44,044 nucleotides of DNA from a virus: IMG/VR virus record IMGVR_UViG_3300029084_000003. One strand, written 5' to 3'. The position numbers and the translations under genes are program-made. The notes beneath the pieces were generated by a model. The model saw only the letters and a program-made list of their open reading frames with translations. It made no database searches and had not been told where the DNA came from. Positions 16,721-27,688 of the stretch are shown here, one piece after another (within the stretch, counting starts at the first letter, position 1; every line of letters begins with the position of its first letter).

Positions 16721-16749
16721 TTGCATCTACTCGCCTCCTGAAATATAAT
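16721..16749 (+). promoter_or_regulatory. Near-consensus sigma-70 promoter on the plus strand (TTGCAT-17 nt-TATAAT)
   Basis: TTGCAT at 16721..16726, exact 17-nt spacer, TATAAT at 16744..16749. It points away from all neighbouring minus-strand genes. Confidence 0.5.
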
Positions 16750-16754
16750 GACCG

Positions 16755-16840
16755 TGAGCAGTTTGATGACGCTGCTCACATTCTCATGAAGAACTTCCCG
16801 AGTTTTTAAGCCCTCGGATTCGGCTCCGAAAGCTTTTTTG
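16755..16840 (+). ncRNA. Putative small RNA A
   Basis: The 5' hairpin GTGAGCAG/CTGCTCAC (16754..16779) starts at the predicted +1. Ends in short hairpins and a T6 run at 16833..16838. Confidence 0.3.
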
Positions 16841-16924
16841 TTGCTTAAAAAATTTCGATGAGTTAGAAATAAATTGTTCCCAACAGATACTCATTTTCAC
16901 TCCTCTGTAATACCCTATCCTTAG

Positions 16925-16953
16925 GCTCTCGGCCCCCAACCGAGGGCTATTTT
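16925..16953 (+). terminator. Plus-strand intrinsic terminator
   Basis: GCTCTCGG-cccccaa-CCGAGGGC followed by TATTTT. Confidence 0.5.
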
Positions 16954-16988
16954 AGTATCTTCTATCAGGAATGTGCTAATATATATGC

Positions 16989-17090
16989 GTGAGCAGTGTC
17001 CTTTCTCCTCCAAGTCAACCGCTGCTGCTCACACAAGTATTTCGTTTTTTCATTCTTTTGGCTCTTGGACTGGTCTCTGAGGGCTTTTTT
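16989..17090 (+). ncRNA. Putative small RNA B (paralogous 5' hairpin to RNA A)
   Basis: Extended -10 TGCTAATAT (16974..16982). The hairpin GTGAGCAG...CTGCTCAC begins at +1 and has a CU-rich loop CCTTTCTCCTCC. Terminator hairpin plus T6 at 17085..17090. Confidence 0.3.
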
Positions 17091-17091
17091 G

Positions 17092-17120
17092 TTGCACTTT
17101 GTATAAGCTTATATGATAAT
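17092..17120 (+). promoter_or_regulatory. Promoter of the CsbD-like gene (TTGCAC-17 nt-GATAAT)
   Basis: TTGCAC 17092..17097, 17-nt spacer, GATAAT 17115..17120. The RBS AAAGGAGG follows. Confidence 0.55.
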
Positions 17121-17144
17121 TGATGTTAAAAGGAGGTAATATCT

Positions 17145-17363
17145 ATGAGTTTAGATGGTAAAGTCGACAGCACCAAGGACAAGATCTCCGGTAAAGCTAA
17201 AGAAGTTGAAGGCAAAGTAACGGGTGATAAGGCTCGTGAAACACAGGGCAAAGCAGAAGGAATACTTGGCAAGGCCAAGGAAAAGCTTGATGATGCCAAA
17301 GATGCTGTTAAAGATACAGTAGATGATGTGAAAAACAAGCTCAGCACAGATAAGAAAGACTAA
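17145..17363 (+). CDS. CsbD-family general stress protein (moron)
   Basis: 72 aa: MSLDGKVDSTKDKISGKAKEVEGKVTGDKARETQGKAEGILGKAKEKLDDAKDAVKD. This is the typical CsbD repeat pattern. It has its own promoter, RBS and terminator, on the strand opposite the lytic genes. Confidence 0.8.
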   Translation: MSLDGKVDSTKDKISGKAKEVEGKVTGDKARETQGKAEGILGKAKEKLDDAKDAVKDTVDDVKNKLSTDKKD

Positions 17364-17370
17364 TTAACTG

Positions 17371-17393
17371 GCCGGCAAACTGCCGGCTTTTTT
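17371..17393 (+). terminator. Intrinsic terminator of the CsbD-like gene
   Basis: GCCGGCA-aac-TGCCGGC followed by TTTTTT. Confidence 0.8.
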
Positions 17394-17454
17394 GTCGCCT
17401 TTTTAAACCTGTACAAATCCGGTACAAGAGTTTTACAGGTTTGATAAACTCAAT

Positions 17455-17543
17455 TGTTATACTAGTCGTGCAAGGTCGGTCCGCCTTGCAATCACACTTA
17501 CCCCCATACACGCCTTCAGTTCTGGGGAGCTGGAGGCTTTTTT
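17455..17543 (+). ncRNA. Putative small RNA with its extended -10 promoter
   Basis: TGTTATACT at 17455..17463. Hairpin TGCAAGG/CCTTGCA begins at +1 (17469). C-rich single strand ACCCCCA. Terminator GCCTTCAG/CTGGAGGC plus T6 (17512..17543). Confidence 0.35.
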
Positions 17544-17687
17544 GTTGCACAAAAATAGCACCTCACCGTTTGGCGGAGTGCTTTAGTAAATAAAAAGATG
17601 CCAAAGCGTCAATGCCAAATAATATCAACTTTCCCACCCGAAATCTGTGGGCATTGATCCCCGGCCGAGTCTAAAAACTCGGGTAGT

Positions 17688-18335
17688 TCAATTACCAGAG
17701 GACCATTCTTTAAATCTTCCGTTGATTCCGTCTATCCTCGCCCCCATCTTATGTGTATTAACTGATTTTCCCGAATCGATTCCTGCCACATAATCTTGCA
17801 ATTTGCTTTGAGCTATAACTATGTCACTATATGTGCTAATCTCGATTTTGTTGGTAATCGATATCAACTCCTTAGTGACGGCATCTGGATTCACACCTGG
17901 AGGAGTCATAGTAAAGAACTTTGGCTCATTTTCCTCAGGCAAGTACTCACGTTGAATATAACCTGCGTCAGTTTGTCCAAATGCCAAAGCCATGATTTTG
18001 TTACCATTCACTCCGCAAATAACAACAATTTGATTTACACAATTTCCATCTATGTCTTTTGCTCCCTTTAACGTTTCCTTAACAAACTGTTGGATCACAT
18101 TTACGTAAAGTTGCCAGTTTAACTGAGCTCCGTTGCTTTGAACATGTAATCGCTTTATGAAGTCCTTTATTATGTCAGCAACTTGAGCGTTTCCTGTAGT
18201 TGCGATCAAAATGTTTGATTCGGCTAACATAAATTTTTTATAGTTTTCCCCAACCGTTTTTGTTCCTTGAGACATTCTTCCATCTGCCACAATTGAGCAA
18301 AAGTCTTTAGTCAAAAATCCAGAAATAAAGCTCAT
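17688..18335 (-). CDS. Proteasome beta-subunit / HslV-like Ntn hydrolase (Ser1 nucleophile predicted)
   Basis: After Met removal, SFISGFLTKDFCSIVADGRMSQGTKTVGENYKKFMLAESNILIATTGNAQVAD aligns without gaps to the proteasome beta / HslV N-terminus. Residue 1 is Ser/Thr, and Asp17, Arg19, Lys33 and Gly47 are all in register. A later ICG...G segment also matches. The GSG loop is not conserved. Confidence 0.6.
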   Translation of the reverse strand: MSFISGFLTKDFCSIVADGRMSQGTKTVGENYKKFMLAESNILIATTGNAQVADIIKDFIKRLHVQSNGAQLNWQLYVNVIQQFVKETLKGAKDIDGNCVNQIVVICGVNGNKIMALAFGQTDAGYIQREYLPEENEPKFFTMTPPGVNPDAVTKELISITNKIEISTYSDIVIAQSKLQDYVAGIDSGKSVNTHKMGARIDGINGRFKEWSSGN

Positions 18336-18340
18336 TCCTA

Positions 18341-18396
18341 ATCACCTCAAAAAAATAGTACTCCAGCGTGAACTGGAATACTACATTGAGGTGATA
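18341..18396 (-). terminator. Intrinsic terminator nested in an outer stem that pairs with the downstream SD
   Basis: Minus strand: ATCACCTCAA-TGTA-GTATTCCAG-TTCACG-CTGGAGTAC-TA-TTTTTTT-GAGGTGAT-TAGGA-ATG. Inner hairpin plus T7 forms the terminator. The outer arms 18387..18396 and 18341..18350 are complementary and cover the RBS GAGGTGAT of the 17688..18335 gene. Confidence 0.6.
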
Positions 18397-18627
18397 TCTA
18401 ATGTTTTTGGAGTGACAGGCTCCAAAGCGAGCGGACGGAGTTGCACCTTCCTGTTTCAGCATTGAGTAACCGGTATCAATGCCTTCCCTTGTCTGCTGAT
18501 CGCATAATTGATGGCCGAGACCTAAAATAGCGCCATCATGAGCACGTCTGCTGCTTTCCCCATATCCCGTATCCATATGGAGCATTTCTGCAGCGGAGGT
18601 TTTCGCCGCAGTTGAGTCAACTTTGTA

Positions 18628-18704
18628 TGCAACCGGCGGGATTTGAACCCGCGACACCGACGCACGCGCGAACTATAGTCGGTGAGCCGATCTCAATCGG
18701 TTGC
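18628..18704 (-). ncRNA. tRNA-like module 1 (7-bp acceptor, T arm, 16-nt anticodon-position loop)
   Basis: GCAACCG AT TGAG-ATCGG-CTCA CCGAC-[TATAGTTCGCGCGTGC]-GTCGG TGTC GCGGG-TTCAAAT-CCCGC CGGTTGC A. The loop carries the palindrome CGCGCG. Confidence 0.45.
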
Positions 18705-18847
18705 TCCTGTTTCTGCTATCCGAGGCGATGGTTTCTGAGCCCTCGGTTACGGTGGTTCCCACATTGTCTTGAAGTGCAAGGCATGTGACCACGCTTTATA
18801 CTCGCCCACTAGTCCGCGCTAGCAAGCACGCTGGGCTTTACCGGTAA

Positions 18848-18945
18848 TATCGCTGGTCGGGATTTGCACCCGACATGAGCCATTGCCAGCCCCTCTTAAG
18901 CATGCGCATGTACTGGTTGGCGTCTACCTATTCCGCCACAGCGAC
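18848..18945 (-). ncRNA. tRNA-like module 2 (class II-like, oversized anticodon region)
   Basis: GTCGCTG TG GCGG-AATAGGTAGA-CGCC ... CCAG-[23 nt including the palindrome CATGCGCATG]-CTGG ... TCGGG-TGCAAAT-CCCGA ... CAGCGAT A. The D arm resembles tRNA-Leu, but there is no 7-nt anticodon loop. Confidence 0.45.
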
Positions 18946-19255
18946 ACGACACGAATCCTAGATACCGCGCTAGGCCGCTAACGCACAGACAAGTCTCTGG
19001 TGGGACATAATAGCCGTGTCTTGCTACCGTTTTGTATTGCTCGCTCTCCCAGTGTCAGATGGGGTCATCGCAATCTGTGTCCGGTCGCTAAACTGGACAA
19101 AGAACTGTGCCACGACCTGCCGTGGCTGGTCCCGCTCAACCGGGCAGCTCAGCCTCTAAGGAGGCATATAAGTTCACCCTGCTACTCATCGTCATGGTAG
19201 GCGTATTGGTATGTAGTGACGGTAGCTACTCCGTCACAGACCTTCACGGGTGATA

Positions 19256-19320
19256 TGTGGCATGCGGGAATCGAACCCGCCTGACTATCTCAGCCAGTCC
19301 TCATTGCCACGCCTTGCCAC
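19256..19320 (-). ncRNA. tRNA-like module 3 (acceptor + T arm + one hairpin; not a canonical tRNA)
   Basis: Minus strand: GTGGCAA..CTGGCTGAGATAGTCAG GCGGG-TTCGATT-CCCGC ATGCCAC A. The T loop is canonical. There is no D arm, and the anticodon-like loop is non-canonical. Confidence 0.45.
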
Positions 19321-19422
19321 AGCTTTATCATCACTGAGGCTCGGAGGAAAAATGCGGTGTCTCAGGTTTCTCACCTTTGGCACAATACCATCATAAGGCG
19401 GAAAAGCGTGTTTTTTGTTGCA

Positions 19423-19866
19423 TCATTGTTGCACGGATGTTGCAACTAGTTTCACTAGCGGACATATTTCAGCAAAAGCATAGAGAGCTTCTTGTGTTTG
19501 TCGCCAAAGGGTCGTTCGGTCAACATGCAAGTGGTCGGCTAACTGAAGGCTGGATTTACGTGTCGTCTTTGGAGTCAGATAGCTCTCAACTAAAATGATC
19601 CGGTAGTTTTCATTCTCTAGAGATTCAATGGCACCTTCACAGCACGCTATATAGTACAGCTCGTCAGCGTGTGATACGAGTTTGTCCTCGGCTTTATTTC
19701 CATAGCTGGGTGACTTGGGCATGCCGTCCATCACGGGGCTTCTGAGCGCTATTTTGGTGCGTTGAGCGAGCCGCTTGTGATGCCAGTAGTTCCCCAAGAC
19801 CTCTTTGGCGTTTTCAATTGTTTTGTCATGATCAATTGGGCTAAAATATCTCGTTGCTCGCACCAC
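19423..19866 (-). CDS. ArpU-family late transcriptional regulator
   Basis: About 147 aa. Reads NAKEVLGNYWHHKRLA... with a C-terminal sigma-region-4-like SSLQLADHLHVDRTTLWRQTQEALYAFAE. Probable start is the GTG at 19866, 8 nt after AAGGAG. Confidence 0.7.
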   Translation of the reverse strand: MVRATRYFSPIDHDKTIENAKEVLGNYWHHKRLAQRTKIALRSPVMDGMPKSPSYGNKAEDKLVSHADELYYIACCEGAIESLENENYRIILVESYLTPKTTRKSSLQLADHLHVDRTTLWRQTQEALYAFAEICPLVKLVATSVQQ

Positions 19867-20030
19867 TGCGTCCACTCCTTATGGTATAATTAAATTTGTA
19901 AAAGTTTGGGGAAACGGCGTGCCGTAATGGTGCGCTTTTGTTTTTTGTGATATACTTACTGTTCAAATAATTCGATTTGATAGACTGAGTCGTCCTGTTA
20001 ATCCGGGGCGACTTTTGCTATACTACCTTT

Positions 20031-20121
20031 GGAGATGCTTTCTTATGCGTGTTAACCTTATAAGTTGGGGAACAATCTGATTCAAGCATCTCCCGCGCGT
20101 TGCTTATATGACGCGCTTTTT
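20031..20121 (+). ncRNA. Putative small RNA (array unit 2)
   Basis: The long hairpin GGAGATGCTT (20031..20040) / AAGCATCTCC (20084..20093) starts 7 nt after the -10. Followed by terminator GCGCGT/ACGCGC plus T5. Confidence 0.35.
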
Positions 20122-20135
20122 GGTATACTGTATAC

Positions 20136-20219
20136 GGAGGCCAAATCCTAATCTTTTATTTAATTCACTCTCAATCGTACGTCTGGCCTCCGGCGCGTCC
20201 TTCACCAGACGCGCTTTTT
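20136..20219 (+). ncRNA. Putative small RNA (array unit 3)
   Basis: The long hairpin GGAGGCCA (20136..20143) / TGGCCTCC (20184..20191) starts 7 nt after the -10. Followed by terminator GCGCGTC/GACGCGC plus T5. Same architecture as unit 2. Confidence 0.35.
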
Positions 20220-20227
20220 GTTTACAA

Positions 20228-20308
20228 TCATTTTCCTCTTTTCCAGTTAGCCCACATCCATATTGCAACACCCGCGATGAGCAATATAACGGCAATCATC
20301 TGTTTCAT
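20228..20308 (-). CDS. 26-aa hydrophobic peptide
   Basis: MKQMIAVILLIAGVAIWMWANWKRGK. ATGA overlap with the upstream 60-aa gene. Below the track threshold. Confidence 0.35.
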   Translation of the reverse strand: MKQMIAVILLIAGVAIWMWANWKRGK

Positions 20309-20487
20309 TTCTGCTTCTCTCTGATTGCATCCGAAATGTCCCAAAGTGCAAACAAGACTGCTATCAGTGTCAAACCAGTAAATGTTTTGTAAACTCCAAA
20401 ATTCATATATTTTGCAGGTAAAAATGAAGACGCCAGAGCTAACATGAAACCAATCCATGACATGAAACGGTAAGGCCTTATTTTCAT
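20305..20487 (-). CDS. Small membrane protein
   Basis: 60 aa, two TM helices. ATGA overlap with the YopX-like gene. Confidence 0.5.
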   Translation of the reverse strand: MKIRPYRFMSWIGFMLALASSFLPAKYMNFGVYKTFTGLTLIAVLFALWDISDAIREKQK

Positions 20488-20927
20488 CGCTTTCTCTCCA
20501 GTAGCTGTTTGTCTTCAAAGATGTTCCCGATGACCTCACACGTCTCAACGCCACTTTGGAAAATGGTTGCAAGTGCATTTGCGTCATAACTCCATGATGC
20601 CGGTATGCCTGCCAAATCAAATGCTGGGTATCCCTCATCGCCAAACCATTTTACAGTTGCTACATATGATTCACCGTCTTCTCCTGTGACTTTCAGAATA
20701 TCTGACTCGTAGATCTCTCGTCCGTTCTTGTCGTGCAGGCCGGTAAATTGTTCGATAATGTATTGCTCATTATCCAAGAATCCGGCAAAGCACTCTTCGT
20801 CATAAACAACATCCTCACCATCGTCATACTTAACACAGCCACTCAGCATGTCGTATGCTCTTTGTATGTCATACAAGTAACACTCATTTTCCTTATCCCA
20901 CGCTCTGAACTTAATCTCTCGTTTCAT
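20484..20927 (-). CDS. YopX-family protein
   Basis: MKREIKFRAWDKENECYLYD...EQFTGLHDKNGREIYESDIL...CEVIGNIFE is the characteristic YopX pattern. Start trimmed to the ATG after GGAGGCGGAG. Confidence 0.8.
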   Translation of the reverse strand: MKREIKFRAWDKENECYLYDIQRAYDMLSGCVKYDDGEDVVYDEECFAGFLDNEQYIIEQFTGLHDKNGREIYESDILKVTGEDGESYVATVKWFGDEGYPAFDLAGIPASWSYDANALATIFQSGVETCEVIGNIFEDKQLLERKR

Positions 20928-26980: not shown

Positions 26981-27466
26981 CTACCGCACCCCCAGTCCAA
27001 TGTTCTCAACCAGTCGCGCGTTTGGTACCTCGCGGCCAGCTTGTAACGCTTTCTTCAAGTCAGCTTTGTTTACCATCAACGTGGTCTTAATGAACTCTGG
27101 TGGCAACTTATTCGGGTCTTCTGGTGCTTCCACGCTCACTGTTCTGCGAGTGTAAATACTGAACAGTGGTGTATGAATGTGTTCACGACCAGTTTCAACC
27201 ATCGCTTGCGCCAATCGTGATTTGATTGTCGCAGCGTTTTTCTTGGCACTTGTCTTTCGTTCTTGCAAACGCCTGATTTCAGCGTCGATTTCTTTGATGT
27301 CTGCTTCGACTGATTTATAGACTTTGACATAGCCAACCGCCTTATCATCAAAGTCGCCCTCAACCATTTCCATCGTGTCAGCAATAGCTTCTGGATCAGC
27401 CTTGCCACTTTCTGCCAGTCGTTGCAAACTGGTCAATTTGTCTGTTAAGTCGTATAATACTGACAT
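26981..27466 (-). CDS. Siphovirus Gp157-family protein
   Basis: 161 aa, coiled-coil. First gene of the recombination module, as in Sfi21-like phages. Confidence 0.5.
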   Translation of the reverse strand: MSVLYDLTDKLTSLQRLAESGKADPEAIADTMEMVEGDFDDKAVGYVKVYKSVEADIKEIDAEIRRLQERKTSAKKNAATIKSRLAQAMVETGREHIHTPLFSIYTRRTVSVEAPEDPNKLPPEFIKTTLMVNKADLKKALQAGREVPNARLVENIGLGVR

Positions 27467-27484
27467 CTAATATTTTCCTTTCTA

Positions 27485-27688
27485 TCAGTCGTTGGTCTGG
27501 ACGCCAGCGGCTTTTTTCATGACTTGTTTGATAATGAATAGGATTGTGTCGGCGCCATCTTCCTGACCCATTGCGTATGTTTGCTTGGAGTCTGTATTGT
27601 CAGGACCATAATCATAAGCAACCTTGCGATATGCTGCGATCTGGCGGTTCGCTTCGGCTAAAATGTGCTCGTATACCTCATTAGTCAT
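27485..27688 (-). CDS. Hypothetical protein
   Basis: 67-aa ORF. Co-oriented and tightly spaced with its neighbours. Confidence 0.4.
   Translation of the reverse strand: MTNEVYEHILAEANRQIAAYRKVAYDYGPDNTDSKQTYAMGQEDGADTILFIIKQVMKKAAGVQTND

What the first reader, a model, noticed from the sequence alone, without database searches (positions are those of the whole stretch)
19882..20228. Tandem array of plus-strand promoter / hairpin / terminator units, antisense to the transcript entering the late activator gene
The 350-bp spacer upstream of arpU (in the lytic, minus-strand sense) carries four clean repeats of one architecture on the opposite strand. Each has an extended -10 box (TGGTATAAT 19882, TGATATACT 19948, TGCTATACT 20016, TGGTATACT 20121, and a fifth weaker TG-TTTACAAT at 20219). 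Each box is placed immediately after a GC-rich hairpin plus T-run, which would be the terminator of the preceding unit.

In units 2 and 3 a long hairpin begins exactly 7 nt after the -10 box, at the expected +1: GGAGATGCTT...AAGCATCTCC at 20031..20093 and GGAGGCCA...TGGCCTCC at 20136..20191. Each is followed by a second terminator hairpin. The sequences differ between units, but the layout is conserved, so this is not a simple DNA repeat.

The predicted products are four RNAs of about 50-95 nt made from the lysogeny strand. They would be fully complementary to any early lytic transcript reading into arpU. Possible roles are antisense or transcriptional-interference control of late-gene timing, silencing of leaky late expression in lysogens, or decoy/anti-defence RNAs.
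Basis: partly seen in the sequence, partly recalled or inferred. Interest (0 to 1): 0.7.

Follow-up and report, generated by a model that had tools for sequence, protein, structure and literature searches.

The report
Antisense small-RNA gene array guarding arpU
The 350-bp gap in front of this Lacticaseibacillus prophage's late-gene activator (arpU) holds four real, back-to-back small-RNA genes on the opposite strand; the unit next to arpU recurs in Enterococcus and Listeria phages, so it probably keeps the lysis-triggering activator off until the phage commits to lytic growth.

Summary
Window 19882-20220 (+) carries four units, each with an extended -10 promoter, a +1 six or seven nt downstream, a structured 45-95 nt RNA and an intrinsic terminator. 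All four point against the minus-strand early operon, whose last gene is arpU.

TGNTATAMT occurs five times on the + strand of the 44-kb window, four of them here, and never on the - strand. In 77 distinct related loci the array has 1-5 units and never an arpU-strand terminator. The big hairpins keep invariant GGAG/CUCC ends while inner pairs covary.

Published sRNA-seq of the lysogen L. casei BL23 lists homologous RNAs (86-98% identical). Their 5' ends map to window 19898 and 20031, and their 3' ends to the predicted terminators. That paper assigns no function.

The arpU-proximal unit is a cassette also found upstream of arpU-family genes in Enterococcus and Listeria phages. I found no description of it.

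Function is inferred. It is most likely a cis-antisense and convergent-transcription gate on a lethal late activator. The main rival is that units 2-4 are trans-acting moron sRNAs. The fifth "box" at 20219 is not supported.

Verdict: a new variant of a known kind.

The parts
19423..19866 (-). arpU, an ArpU-family late-gene transcriptional activator. The maximal ORF runs to 19875; the likely start is GTG 19866, preceded by SD AAGGAG at 19875-19880.
   Evidence: TIGR01637 scores 47.9 bits against a cut-off of 43.1. phrog_248 'transcriptional activator' E 7e-42. Relatives annotate the 444-nt version.
19882..19890 (+). Unit 1 extended -10 promoter TGGTATAAT, 1 nt from the complement of arpU's SD.
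   Evidence: BL23 Table S4 pairs TGGTATAAT/TGGTATGAT with a TSS 6-7 nt downstream.
19898..19946 (+). Unit 1 RNA, about 45-50 nt: an 18-nt G/U-rich leader, then terminator hairpin 19916-19936 and a T-run.
   Evidence: sLCB1264.9- nt 1-45 is 97.8% identical to 19898-19942. It folds at -14.2 kcal/mol on + and -5.3 on -. Terminator scan. Present in nearly all related loci.
19948..19956 (+). Unit 2 extended -10 promoter TGATATACT.
19963..20016 (+). Unit 2 RNA, about 54 nt: small 5' hairpin 19963-19980, then terminator hairpin 19987-20014 and a T-run. The +1 is predicted only.
   Evidence: Fold -19.4 kcal/mol, z -3.9 on +, against -10.5 on -. sLCB573.6- covers 19917-20018 at 93% identity and ends at this terminator. 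Family of 9 variants in 22 loci.
20016..20024 (+). Unit 3 extended -10 promoter TGCTATACT.
20031..20121 (+). Unit 3 RNA, about 91 nt: 5'-terminal hairpin GGAGATGCTT...AAGCATCTCC (20031-20093), then terminator 20095-20116 and a T-run.
   Evidence: The 5' end of sLCB573.5- is the first G of GGAGAUGCUU. One library ends about 92 nt later. Fold z -4.3.
20121..20129 (+). Unit 4 extended -10 promoter TGGTATACT.
20136..20220 (+). Unit 4 RNA, about 85 nt: 5'-terminal hairpin GGAGGCCA...TGGCCTCC (20136-20191, 40-nt A/U-rich loop), then terminator 20192-20215 and a T-run. The +1 is predicted only.
   Evidence: Fold z -5.5. Most common unit type in relatives. Covariation. sLCB573.2- is 89% identical over 20119-20219.
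20231..20311 (-). Conserved 26-aa hydrophobic peptide gene (MKQMIAVILLIAGVAIWMWANWKRGK), the last early gene before the array. It is a neighbour, not shown to be part of the system.
   Evidence: phrog_27601 E 1.5e-13. Separated from the array by other genes in many relatives.

Best explanation
**What it is.** The spacer is a tandem array of four independent small-RNA genes on the lysogeny (+) strand. Each has a -35-independent extended -10 promoter for the host housekeeping sigma factor, a +1 six or seven nt downstream, and a short structured RNA ending in an intrinsic terminator. The terminator's T-run runs into the next promoter. The array fires head-on into the roughly 10-kb minus-strand early operon, whose last gene is arpU.

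There are two tiers:
- **Unit 1.** Its promoter sits 1 nt from arpU's ribosome-binding site. It has a short leader and an immediate terminator. This cassette is also found upstream of arpU-family genes in Enterococcus and Listeria phages.
- **Units 2-4.** These are accessory; relatives carry none to four units beyond unit 1 (1-5 in all). Units 3 and 4 belong to a 'GGAG-hairpin' family. The RNA starts with GGAG, which pairs with CUCC about 55 nt later. This closes a 40-nt A/U-rich loop, and a terminator follows directly.

**Most likely mechanism (inferred).** The array is a cis-acting gate on arpU.
- In lysogens the constitutive promoters occupy DNA at and upstream of the arpU RBS and collide with any RNA polymerase leaking down the early operon.
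- The abundant antisense RNAs pair with the arpU leader by loop-loop contacts, because the sense RNA forms mirror-image hairpins.
- The sense transcript is therefore truncated or degraded before arpU is translated.
- After induction, strong early transcription and replication overrun the antisense promoters and titrate the sRNAs. ArpU, and with it packaging and lysis genes, appears only above a threshold and with a delay.

**Shown versus inferred.** Shown: architecture, strand, conservation, covariation, expression of homologues, position. Inferred: any effect on arpU.
For: **Architecture and non-randomness.**

**Conservation in relatives.**
- 77 distinct related loci carry 1-5 units. None has a terminator on the arpU strand.
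- Units fall into sequence families that share one layout.
- The -10-to-GGAG spacer is 6 nt in nearly all of 62 units.

**RNA-level selection.**
- Five stem pairs show compensatory changes. Observed covariation is 0.207 against 0.090 in shuffles, with 0 of 500 shuffles as high. Slid controls pair in at most 56% of cells against 89.6% observed.
- The plus strand folds better in 89 of 127 units, with 338 G-U pairs against 157.

**Expression.** BL23 sRNA-seq (PMC8220740) lists sLCB1264.9-, 1264.7-, 573.6-, 573.5- and 573.2- at 48-2331 CPM. They map to the window units at 86-98% identity. Their 5' ends fall at 19898 and 20031.

**Link to arpU.**
- The array always lies antisense and upstream of arpU-family genes, across three alleles that are only 21-31% identical. 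In a few phages a 117-aa gene is interposed.
- All inspected full-architecture hits from a pattern scan of IMG/VR sit in this context.
- A unit-1-type cassette abuts arpU in 53 of 63 Lacticaseibacillus, 19 of 28 Enterococcus and 58 of 64 Listeria distinct upstream regions. At random positions the rate is 8 of 2557 (sequences).
- The Enterococcus versions have unrelated leaders and terminators but an invariant -10. Some form arrays of three units.

**Sense-strand evidence.**
- In PLE3 a sense RNA (sLCB1264+) starts inside the array. It ends in the complement of the unit-1 terminator, before the arpU RBS.
- The window has no minus-strand terminator between about 30.8 kb and arpU, so arpU is read through the array.

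**Trans targets.** None better than shuffled controls within the 44-kb window.

**Rationale from the literature.**
- ltr/arpU genes end the cI-controlled early operon, and constitutive expression would cause premature late expression (PMC3753634).
- Ectopic ArpU-like LlgA alone triggers late genes and lysis in a lysogen (PMC7397523).
Against: - No experiment links these RNAs to arpU.
- Units 2-4 are dispensable. Many relatives, including J-1 and PL-1, which I recall as virulent, keep only unit 1.
- Unit 1 RNA does not cover the arpU SD or start codon, so a simple translational block is unlikely.
- A purely cis antisense role does not explain why GGAG/CUCC is invariant.
- The same prophage has other lysogeny-strand sRNA genes and a CsbD moron far from arpU. 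Such cargo can therefore exist without an arpU link.
- In BL23 the transcripts often read through unit terminators. For 'long-spacer' unit types the 5' end lies 21 nt upstream of the assumed +1.
- BL23 cells were pooled across growth phases, so some signal could come from spontaneously induced cells.
- The cassette is absent from Streptococcus phage Javan330 and from the RinA phage 80alpha.
- Host targets could not be searched.
Confidence: 0.55

Rival explanations
1. Units 2-4, and possibly unit 1, are sRNA 'morons'. These would be autonomous promoter-gene-terminator cassettes parked at the permissive early/late junction and expressed from the prophage. They would act in trans on host mRNAs, host proteins or competing phages (lysogenic conversion, sponge, decoy or anti-defence RNA). 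Being antisense to the arpU leader would then be incidental.
For: - Copy number varies from 1 to 5 units, and unit families are shuffled between phages.
- Many phages keep only unit 1.
- Homologues are expressed at high levels in a lysogen culture.
- The GGAG/CUCC ends are invariant and the loops partly conserved ((A)UGAUUNCAUU-like), which suggests a sequence-specific partner.
- The same prophage has a second island of three homologous-to-published sRNA genes, another promoter/hairpin/terminator unit and a CsbD moron on the same strand at 16756-17550.
- In Enterococcus phiFL2A the equivalent site holds an antisense-strand 63-aa gene with its own promoter and terminator.
Against: - Every inspected occurrence of GGAG-type units lies in the same position and orientation relative to an arpU-family module, although the flanking genes differ.
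- No target better than chance exists within the prophage.
- Loops differ strongly between families while stems, promoter and terminator persist. This fits an RNA whose target is its own complement.
- The unit-1 cassette is conserved across three genera at a fixed distance from the arpU SD.
Confidence: 0.27
2. The array is a passive insulator. The stacked terminators stop lysogeny-strand transcription, whether spurious or from the late/moron region, from running antisense into the early replication genes. The '-10 boxes' and small RNAs would be by-products with no function of their own.
For: - Four strong unidirectional terminators occur in series.
- BL23 transcripts partly read through single terminators, so stacking would improve efficiency.
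- Other plus-strand promoters lie at lower coordinates, on the far side of arpU: 16745-17470.
Against: - The transcripts being terminated start inside the array itself. Their 5' ends lie 6-7 nt after the boxes.
- The boxes are near-consensus, are kept at a fixed 6-nt distance from the hairpin, and are conserved.
- The non-terminator hairpins covary.
- A unit-1 cassette with its own promoter is conserved in three genera.
Confidence: 0.08
3. Unit 4, or the whole array, is the antitoxin RNA of a type I toxin-antitoxin pair. The toxin would be the adjacent 26-aa hydrophobic peptide (20231-20311, minus strand).
For: - The peptide is small, hydrophobic, has a basic tail, and is highly conserved.
- It is transcribed convergently with unit 4, whose terminator ends 11 nt from the peptide's stop codon.
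Against: - Unit 4 RNA does not overlap the ORF.
- In many relatives one or more genes (HTH or others) separate the peptide gene from the array, or the array is only unit 1.
- No complementarity beyond the cis overlap was found.
- The terminators are unidirectional.
Confidence: 0.04
4. The inverted repeats are DNA-level sites, for example protein-binding palindromes, recombination hot spots or packaging signals, rather than RNA genes.
For: - The GGAGGCC...GGCCTCC and GCGCGTC...GACGCGC palindromes read the same on both strands.
- The junction is a mosaic boundary between modules.
Against: - The T-runs lie on one strand only.
- G-U pairs make units 1 and 2 fold only as plus-strand RNA.
- Discrete RNAs with these ends are seen in BL23.
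Confidence: 0.03

Closest known systems
Phage P22 sar RNA (Psar/Pant, immI region)
   Same: A short (about 69 nt) antisense RNA made from a constitutive promoter that faces the promoter of a dangerous regulatory gene (ant). It ends at an intrinsic terminator and limits that gene's expression (my own knowledge of Liao/Wu/Susskind 1987; not re-read here). Unit 1 has the same size, the same geometry and a comparable target class.
   Different: sar covers the ant RBS, whereas unit 1 starts just upstream of the arpU SD and runs away from it. Here there is an array of up to five units, the target is the late activator, the hosts are Gram-positive, and there is no sequence relationship. A closer sar look-alike is the separate candidate at window 27430-27518.
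Lambda OOP RNA and the paQ antisense transcript
   Same: Both are cis-antisense RNAs from a temperate phage that lower expression of a decision gene. OOP acts on cII through RNase III. paQ is antisense to Q, the late-gene activator, which is the same functional target class as arpU (my own knowledge).
   Different: OOP and paQ are single transcripts that overlap coding sequence, and paQ depends on CII. Here the units look constitutive, are tandem, are complementary only to the 5' leader, and have 5'-terminal hairpins.
Convergent-transcription and countertranscript switches of Gram-positive plasmids (pCF10 prgQ/prgX Anti-Q; pIP501 RNAIII; pT181 RNAI)
   Same: A small, stable, hairpin-plus-terminator RNA is made convergently to a leader. 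It combines transcriptional interference with antisense pairing through loops, giving threshold or bistable behaviour (my own knowledge).
   Different: Those systems induce an attenuator terminator in the sense leader. No sense-strand terminator exists here. They also have one countertranscript, not an array.
Tandem multicopy sRNA loci (Listeria LhrC1-5, Vibrio Qrr1-5, streptococcal csRNAs)
   Same: Several sRNA genes lie head-to-tail, each with its own promoter and terminator. Their structure is related but their sequences have diverged. They carry C/U-rich anti-SD-like motifs (my own knowledge).
   Different: Those act in trans on many mRNAs through conserved seed loops and are chromosomal. 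Here the loops vary, the CCUCC is locked in a stem, the position is fixed relative to one phage gene, and no Rfam family matches.
Catalogue sRNAs sLCB573.2-/573.5-/573.6- and sLCB1264.7-/1264.9- of L. casei BL23 (Mickute et al. 2021, PMC8220740)
   Same: These are direct homologues of window units 1-4 (86-98% identity). They were detected by sRNA-seq, and promoters and terminators were predicted for them.
   Different: In the passages and tables I read, they appear as separate 'antisense' or 'intergenic' sRNAs without function. I found no mention there of the array, the hairpin family, the arpU context or the prophage role.
Phage morons (Hendrix-type autonomous cassettes)
   Same: A promoter-gene-terminator unit inserted between phage genes, variably present and expressed from the prophage. 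This fits units 2-4 and the second island at 16756-17550.
   Different: Morons usually encode proteins and sit in various places. These are non-coding and position-locked upstream of arpU.

Membership tests
Independent sRNA gene (promoter + discrete RNA + intrinsic terminator) | Sigma-A type promoter with the transcript start at the expected distance | tested here: met
   Extended -10 boxes. BL23 homologues start 6-7 nt after TGGTATAAT/TGGTATGAT (unit 1) and at the first G of GGAGAUGCUU (unit 3 type). Units 2 and 4 are predicted only. For 'long-spacer' relatives of unit 4 the observed 5' end lies 21 nt further upstream.
Independent sRNA gene (promoter + discrete RNA + intrinsic terminator) | G+C-rich hairpin followed by a U-tract on the transcribed strand, with RNA 3' ends there | tested here: met
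   Four plus-strand terminators and none on the minus strand. The published 3' ends of the homologues fall at these terminators.
Independent sRNA gene (promoter + discrete RNA + intrinsic terminator) | No conserved reading frame | tested here: met
   ORFs across the spacer are short and not conserved in frame or presence between variants. This was a manual check of start codons after GGAGG on both strands.
Structured RNA family (conserved secondary structure) | Base pairs maintained by compensatory substitutions | tested here: met
   Alignment A1 of 27 sequences: 5 of 10 pairs in helix 1 change on both sides, in 31 cells against 4.9 in shuffles (0 of 500 as high). Slid controls pair in at most 56% of cells against 89.6% observed.
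Cis-encoded antisense regulator of a phage regulatory gene (sar/OOP/paQ-like) | RNA transcribed opposite to, and overlapping, the target gene's transcript | tested here: inconclusive
   The opposite-strand orientation is shown. A sense transcript crossing the array is inferred from the absence of minus-strand terminators and strong promoters between 30.8 kb and arpU. It is also suggested by a sense RNA inside the PLE3 array. It was not measured for this phage.
Cis-encoded antisense regulator of a phage regulatory gene (sar/OOP/paQ-like) | Changes expression of the target (arpU) | not testable with these tools
   Needs -10 box mutants, reporters or Northern blots.
Cis-encoded antisense regulator of a phage regulatory gene (sar/OOP/paQ-like) | Conserved linkage to the target gene across relatives | tested here: met
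   The array or cassette lies upstream of three divergent arpU alleles and across three genera: 53/63, 19/28 and 58/64 regions, against 8/2557 random positions.
Any Rfam family | Covariance-model match at or above the gathering score | tested here: not met
   No hits at gathering score in the window. Only chance-level hits within the array at E up to 10 (rli28, E 9.7). None for the PLE3, Listeria or Enterococcus cassettes.
Type I toxin-antitoxin (antitoxin sRNA) | Antitoxin RNA overlaps or pairs with the toxin mRNA, and the pair is inherited together | tested here: not met
   Unit 4 does not overlap the peptide ORF. The peptide gene and the array are separated by other genes in many loci.
Moron (autonomous lysogen-expressed cassette) | Own promoter and terminator, variable presence between related phages, expressed from the prophage | tested here: met
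   Units 2-4 are present or absent among 77 loci. Homologues are expressed in BL23 cultures. This does not exclude a cis role.
Attenuation-type countertranscript (pIP501/pT181-like) | Sense leader contains a terminator that the antisense RNA induces | tested here: not met
   No arpU-strand hairpin plus U-tract in the spacer of the window or of any of 77 loci.

The most novel reading that the evidence does not exclude
ArpU-family late activators of temperate phages in at least three Firmicute genera (Lacticaseibacillus, Enterococcus, Listeria) would be guarded by a conserved RNA-level 'second lock'. This lock is a constitutive antisense promoter-terminator cassette abutting the arpU ribosome-binding site. 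In some lineages it has expanded into arrays of stable hairpin sRNAs. The lock would set the threshold and timing of late-gene expression. Because related phages share unit families, it could also act in trans from a prophage against superinfecting relatives, as an RNA-based layer of immunity with loop-encoded specificity. It could contribute to the unexplained post-transcriptional block of LlgA during Listeria 'active lysogeny'.
Probability: 0.3. Interest if true: 0.8.

Novelty: new variant of a known kind. Interest (0 to 1): 0.68.

Why it matters
ArpU/Ltr activators are the single switch that turns on packaging and lysis genes in many Gram-positive temperate phages. Expressing one ectopically is enough to lyse a lysogen (PMC7397523). 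How their expression is kept off in lysogens and delayed after induction is attributed only to cI control of the early operon (PMC3753634).

A conserved, constitutively transcribed antisense cassette or array placed exactly at this gene would be a previously unrecognised control layer. It is directly testable with a handful of -10 point mutations.

It bears on several questions:
- prophage stability in probiotic and dairy Lacticaseibacillus strains;
- transduction and lysis timing in Enterococcus;
- the unexplained block of late genes during Listeria active lysogeny.

The units are also compact, naturally insulated promoter/5'-hairpin/terminator modules, which could be useful for sRNA expression in lactic acid bacteria.

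Tried and rejected
- **Rfam.** The gathering-score scan of the whole window and E-value scans of the region and of relatives found no family. The weak rli28 and Ref1C hits are below threshold.
- **tRNA/tmRNA.** ARAGORN found none in the window.
- **Coding potential.** Annotated small ORFs in relatives (phiAT3 ORF45-47 and others) are inconsistent between variants, so I rejected them.
- **Trans targets.**
  - A duplex-energy scan timed out.
  - An exact-complement scan found nothing above shuffled controls.
- **Genome-contig scan for ArpU.** Only 3 loci were returned, so it was of little use.
- **Type I toxin-antitoxin idea for the neighbouring hydrophobic peptide.** Rejected because the linkage is not conserved.
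- **Attenuator model.** Rejected because no sense-strand terminators exist.
- **Sense-strand promoter for arpU inside the window array.** Only a weak TTGAGA-18-TAGGAT match was found. The TTGACG-17-GTGTAAATT sense promoter of PLE3 lies in a unit type that the window lacks.
- **RinA phage 80alpha and Streptococcus Javan330.** No cassette was found, so the feature is not universal among Ltr-type activators.
- **Literature.** Seven searches found no description of the array or cassette. The ArpU/Ltr paper, the LlgA paper and a Listeria prophage transcriptome paper do not mention it.
Full report
**Context.** The window is a Lacticaseibacillus temperate prophage of the A2/phiAT3/Lrm1 group. Over the arpU-array region (19400-20500), phages R3.1 and R29.1 are 99.8% and 99.7% identical.
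- Lytic genes run on the minus strand.
- The repressor-to-integrase module runs on the plus strand at 30.9-36.0 kb.
- The ORF at 19423-19875 (-) is an ArpU-family late activator. TIGR01637 scores 47.9 bits against a cut-off of 43.1, and phrog_248 gives E 7e-42.
- Its likely start is GTG 19866, after AAGGAG (19875-19880).
- I found no convincing minus-strand terminator or strong promoter between the switch region (about 30.8 kb) and arpU. arpU is therefore the distal gene of the early operon. This matches what is published for ltr genes (PMC3753634).

**Checking the observation.**
- Extended -10 boxes lie at 19882, 19948, 20016 and 20121.
- Plus-strand intrinsic terminators lie at 19916-36, 19987-20014, 20095-20116 and 20192-20215.
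- Two long hairpins start exactly 7 nt after their boxes: 20031-20093 and 20136-20191.
- TGNTATAMT occurs five times on the plus strand of the whole 44-kb window. Four of those are here and none is on the minus strand; about 2.4 per strand are expected.
- Units 1 and 2 fold well only as plus-strand RNA, because their stems use G-U pairs. Units 3 and 4 have z-scores of -4.3 and -5.5.
- The 'fifth box' at about 20220 has non-canonical TG spacing and no terminator after it. It coincides with the last codons of a conserved 26-aa peptide gene. I do not accept it.

**Relatives.** I collected the arpU-upstream region from 8 GenBank phages and 80 IMG/VR contigs, giving 77 distinct sequences.
- Every array has 1-5 plus-strand terminators, each paired with a TGnTATA(A/C)T box. 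No locus has a terminator on the arpU strand.
- Units cluster into families:
  - Unit 1 (short, next to arpU) is nearly universal.
  - Unit 2 forms its own family.
  - Window units 3 and 4, together with eight further sequence clusters, share one design. This is a -10 box, a 6-nt spacer, GGAG(G/A)xxx, a roughly 40-nt A/U-rich loop, xxxCUCC and then a terminator.
- In a 27-sequence alignment the four outer pairs (GGAG/CUCC) never vary. Five inner pairs change on both sides, in 31 cells against 4.9 in shuffles, with 0 of 500 shuffles as high. The slid-register controls collapse.
- Across 127 distinct units the plus strand folds better in 89. It uses 338 G-U pairs against 157.
- These sequences are related, so the numbers are supportive rather than formal probabilities.

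**Direct evidence for the RNAs.** A published sRNA-seq catalogue of the lysogen L. casei BL23 (Mickute et al. 2021, PMC8220740) lists sRNAs whose sequences and terminators match these units in two prophages. Mapped to the window:
- sLCB1264.9- nt 1-45 matches 19898-19942 at 97.8%. Its TSS lies 7 nt after TGGTATAAT.
- sLCB573.6- matches 19917-20018 at 93%.
- sLCB573.5- matches 20031-20219 at 86%. Its 5' end is the first G of GGAG, and one library ends about 92 nt later.
- sLCB573.2- matches 20119-20219 at 89%.
- Expression is 48-2331 CPM.

Caveats:
- Neighbouring units are often merged or read through.
- 'Long-spacer' unit types have 5' ends 21 nt upstream of the assumed +1.
- Cells were pooled over growth phases.
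- In the passages I read, the paper gives no function and does not mention the array or arpU.

The catalogue also contains a 163-nt sense-strand RNA (sLCB1264+). It starts inside the PLE3 array and ends in the complement of the unit-1 terminator, short of the arpU RBS.

**Link to arpU.**
- A pattern scan of IMG/VR for '-10 box + GGAGGC' returned 117 stretches. Of these, 66 had the full architecture, and all those inspected lie in the same place and orientation.
- The downstream gene can be any of three ArpU-family alleles that are only 21-31% identical. In a few phages a 117-aa gene comes first, followed by an arpU-like gene.
- The phages J-1 and PL-1, which I recall as virulent, keep unit 1 only.
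- The unit-1 design also occurs upstream of arpU genes in other genera. The design is an antisense extended -10 a few nt from the SD complement, a 20-40 nt leader and then a terminator.
  - Enterococcus: phiFL2A, phiEf11 and 80 IMG/VR loci. At least five unrelated leader/terminator versions share an invariant TGGTATAAT.
  - Listeria: A118-like phages.
- The cassette abuts arpU in 53 of 63, 19 of 28 and 58 of 64 distinct upstream regions. At random positions in the same loci the rate is 8 of 2557.
- Some Enterococcus phages have three such units in tandem, and phiFL2A has an antisense 63-aa gene there.
- The cassette is absent from Streptococcus Javan330 and staphylococcal 80alpha.

**Mechanism.** Shown:
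- autonomous, conserved, structured, lysogeny-strand sRNA genes;
- homologues that are expressed;
- a fixed position and orientation in front of arpU.

Inferred: they gate arpU. Convergent constitutive promoters, one overlapping the arpU RBS DNA, together with abundant antisense RNAs, would truncate or destroy weak sense transcripts in lysogens. The antisense loops are exact complements of mirror-image hairpins in the sense leader. After induction the same elements would impose a threshold and a delay.

The rationale comes from the literature:
- Ectopic ArpU-like LlgA alone triggers late genes and lysis (PMC7397523).
- Constitutive Ltr is expected to be deleterious (PMC3753634).

No trans target better than chance exists in the window.

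**The main rival.** Units 2-4 may be trans-acting sRNA morons. Several points favour this:
- They are dispensable in many relatives.
- GGAG/CUCC is invariant for no cis reason.
- The same prophage carries further lysogeny-strand units at 16756-17550. These include three homologues of published sRNAs (one verified by Northern blot) and a CsbD moron.

The type I antitoxin, attenuator, passive-insulator and DNA-site readings each fail specific tests.

**Comparison with known systems.**
- The arrangement works most like P22 sar, lambda OOP/paQ and the convergent-transcription/countertranscript switches of Gram-positive plasmids.
- Its layout resembles tandem sRNA loci such as LhrC1-5.
- It matches no Rfam family.
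- It lacks the sense-strand attenuator of the plasmid systems.
- Unit 1 does not cover the RBS as sar does.
- I found no paper describing the array or the cross-genus cassette.

**Verdict.** The feature is real, conserved, and expressed in homologues. I classify it as a new variant of a known kind (cis-antisense or convergent control of a phage decision gene). Its function has still to be demonstrated.

Noticed in passing
window 16756-17089 (+): Three more lysogeny-strand sRNA genes, each with its own promoter and terminator, lie inside the minus-strand lytic region. They are homologues of BL23 sLCB577.3- (16756-16839, 84%), sLCB577.2- (16876-16953, 87%; verified by Northern blot in the paper) and sLCB577.1- (16989-17089, 88%; about 10,000 CPM).
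   Followed up: partly
window 17105-17400 (+): A plus-strand moron: a 72-aa CsbD-like stress protein gene (17145-17363; PF05532, 47.9 bits against a cut-off of 40). It has its own promoter-like TATGATAAT and the terminator GGCCGGCAAACTGCCGGC plus a T-run.
   Followed up: partly
window 17455-17550 (+): This is the only other TGNTATACT in the window. TGTTATACT is followed by 6 nt, the 5' hairpin GCAAGGTCGGTCCGCCTTGC, about 22 nt of C/A-rich single strand and a terminator. The fold is -28.8 kcal/mol, z -2.6. It is another predicted sRNA of about 75 nt.
   Followed up: partly
window 18340-19420 (-), especially 19256-19383: The 1.1-kb ORF-free stretch downstream of arpU holds three tRNA-like pieces with T-arms GCGGGTTCGATTCCCGC, GTCGGGTGCAAATCCCGAC and GCGGGTTCAAATCCCGC. 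ARAGORN calls none of them, and there are only weak tmRNA/T-arm Rfam hits. The first is the 3' end of a 127-nt RNA seen in BL23 (sLCB574.1+/1265.4+, 97.7% identical). That RNA ends exactly at ...GCCACA, like an unprocessed tRNA 3' end, and has acceptor, anticodon-like and T arms but no D arm. PLE3 and iLp84, and Enterococcus relatives, have a bona fide tRNA at this position.
   Followed up: partly
window 27430-27518 (+): A -35/-10 promoter (TGGTCA-17-TATAAT, 10 of 12) lies inside the first codons of the Mu Gam-like gene (26981-27466, -). It is followed about 22 nt later by a terminator (27487-27512; fold z -3.6). The predicted RNA of about 50 nt would cover the Gam RBS and start codon, making it a P22-sar-like cis-antisense candidate. 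BL23 prophages have short antisense sRNAs in their early regions too (sLCB568-, Northern-verified; sLCB1258-).
   Followed up: partly
window 20231-20311 (-): A highly conserved 26-aa hydrophobic peptide gene (MKQMIAVILLIAGVAIWMWANWKRGK) is present in nearly all relatives whatever the neighbouring genes. Databases mis-name it 'tail length tape measure protein' or 'endonuclease' (phrog_27601). Its function is unknown.
   Followed up: partly
L213 about 1400-1480 (Listeria phage LM 4-11-1): In this variant the antisense TGATATAAT next to arpU faces a sense-strand TGATATAAT 12 nt away, forming the palindrome TGATATAATAAA-N9-TTTATTATATCA. The two would be face-to-face overlapping promoters that could not both be occupied at once.
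   Followed up: no
L003/L005/L007 and others; PLE3 L209 2240-2285: 'Long-spacer' units carry a conserved element of about 35 nt between the previous terminator and the -10 box. It contains the direct repeat GTGCGTT-N6-GTGCGTT. The BL23 RNA 5' ends fall inside it. It may be a regulator-binding site or an alternative promoter.
   Followed up: no
window 17688-18335 (-): A 215-aa ORF between the tRNA-like region and the moron island gives a weak, sub-threshold match to the proteasome/HslV-type fold (PF00227, E 2e-4, 21.4 bits against a cut-off of 22.4).
   Followed up: no
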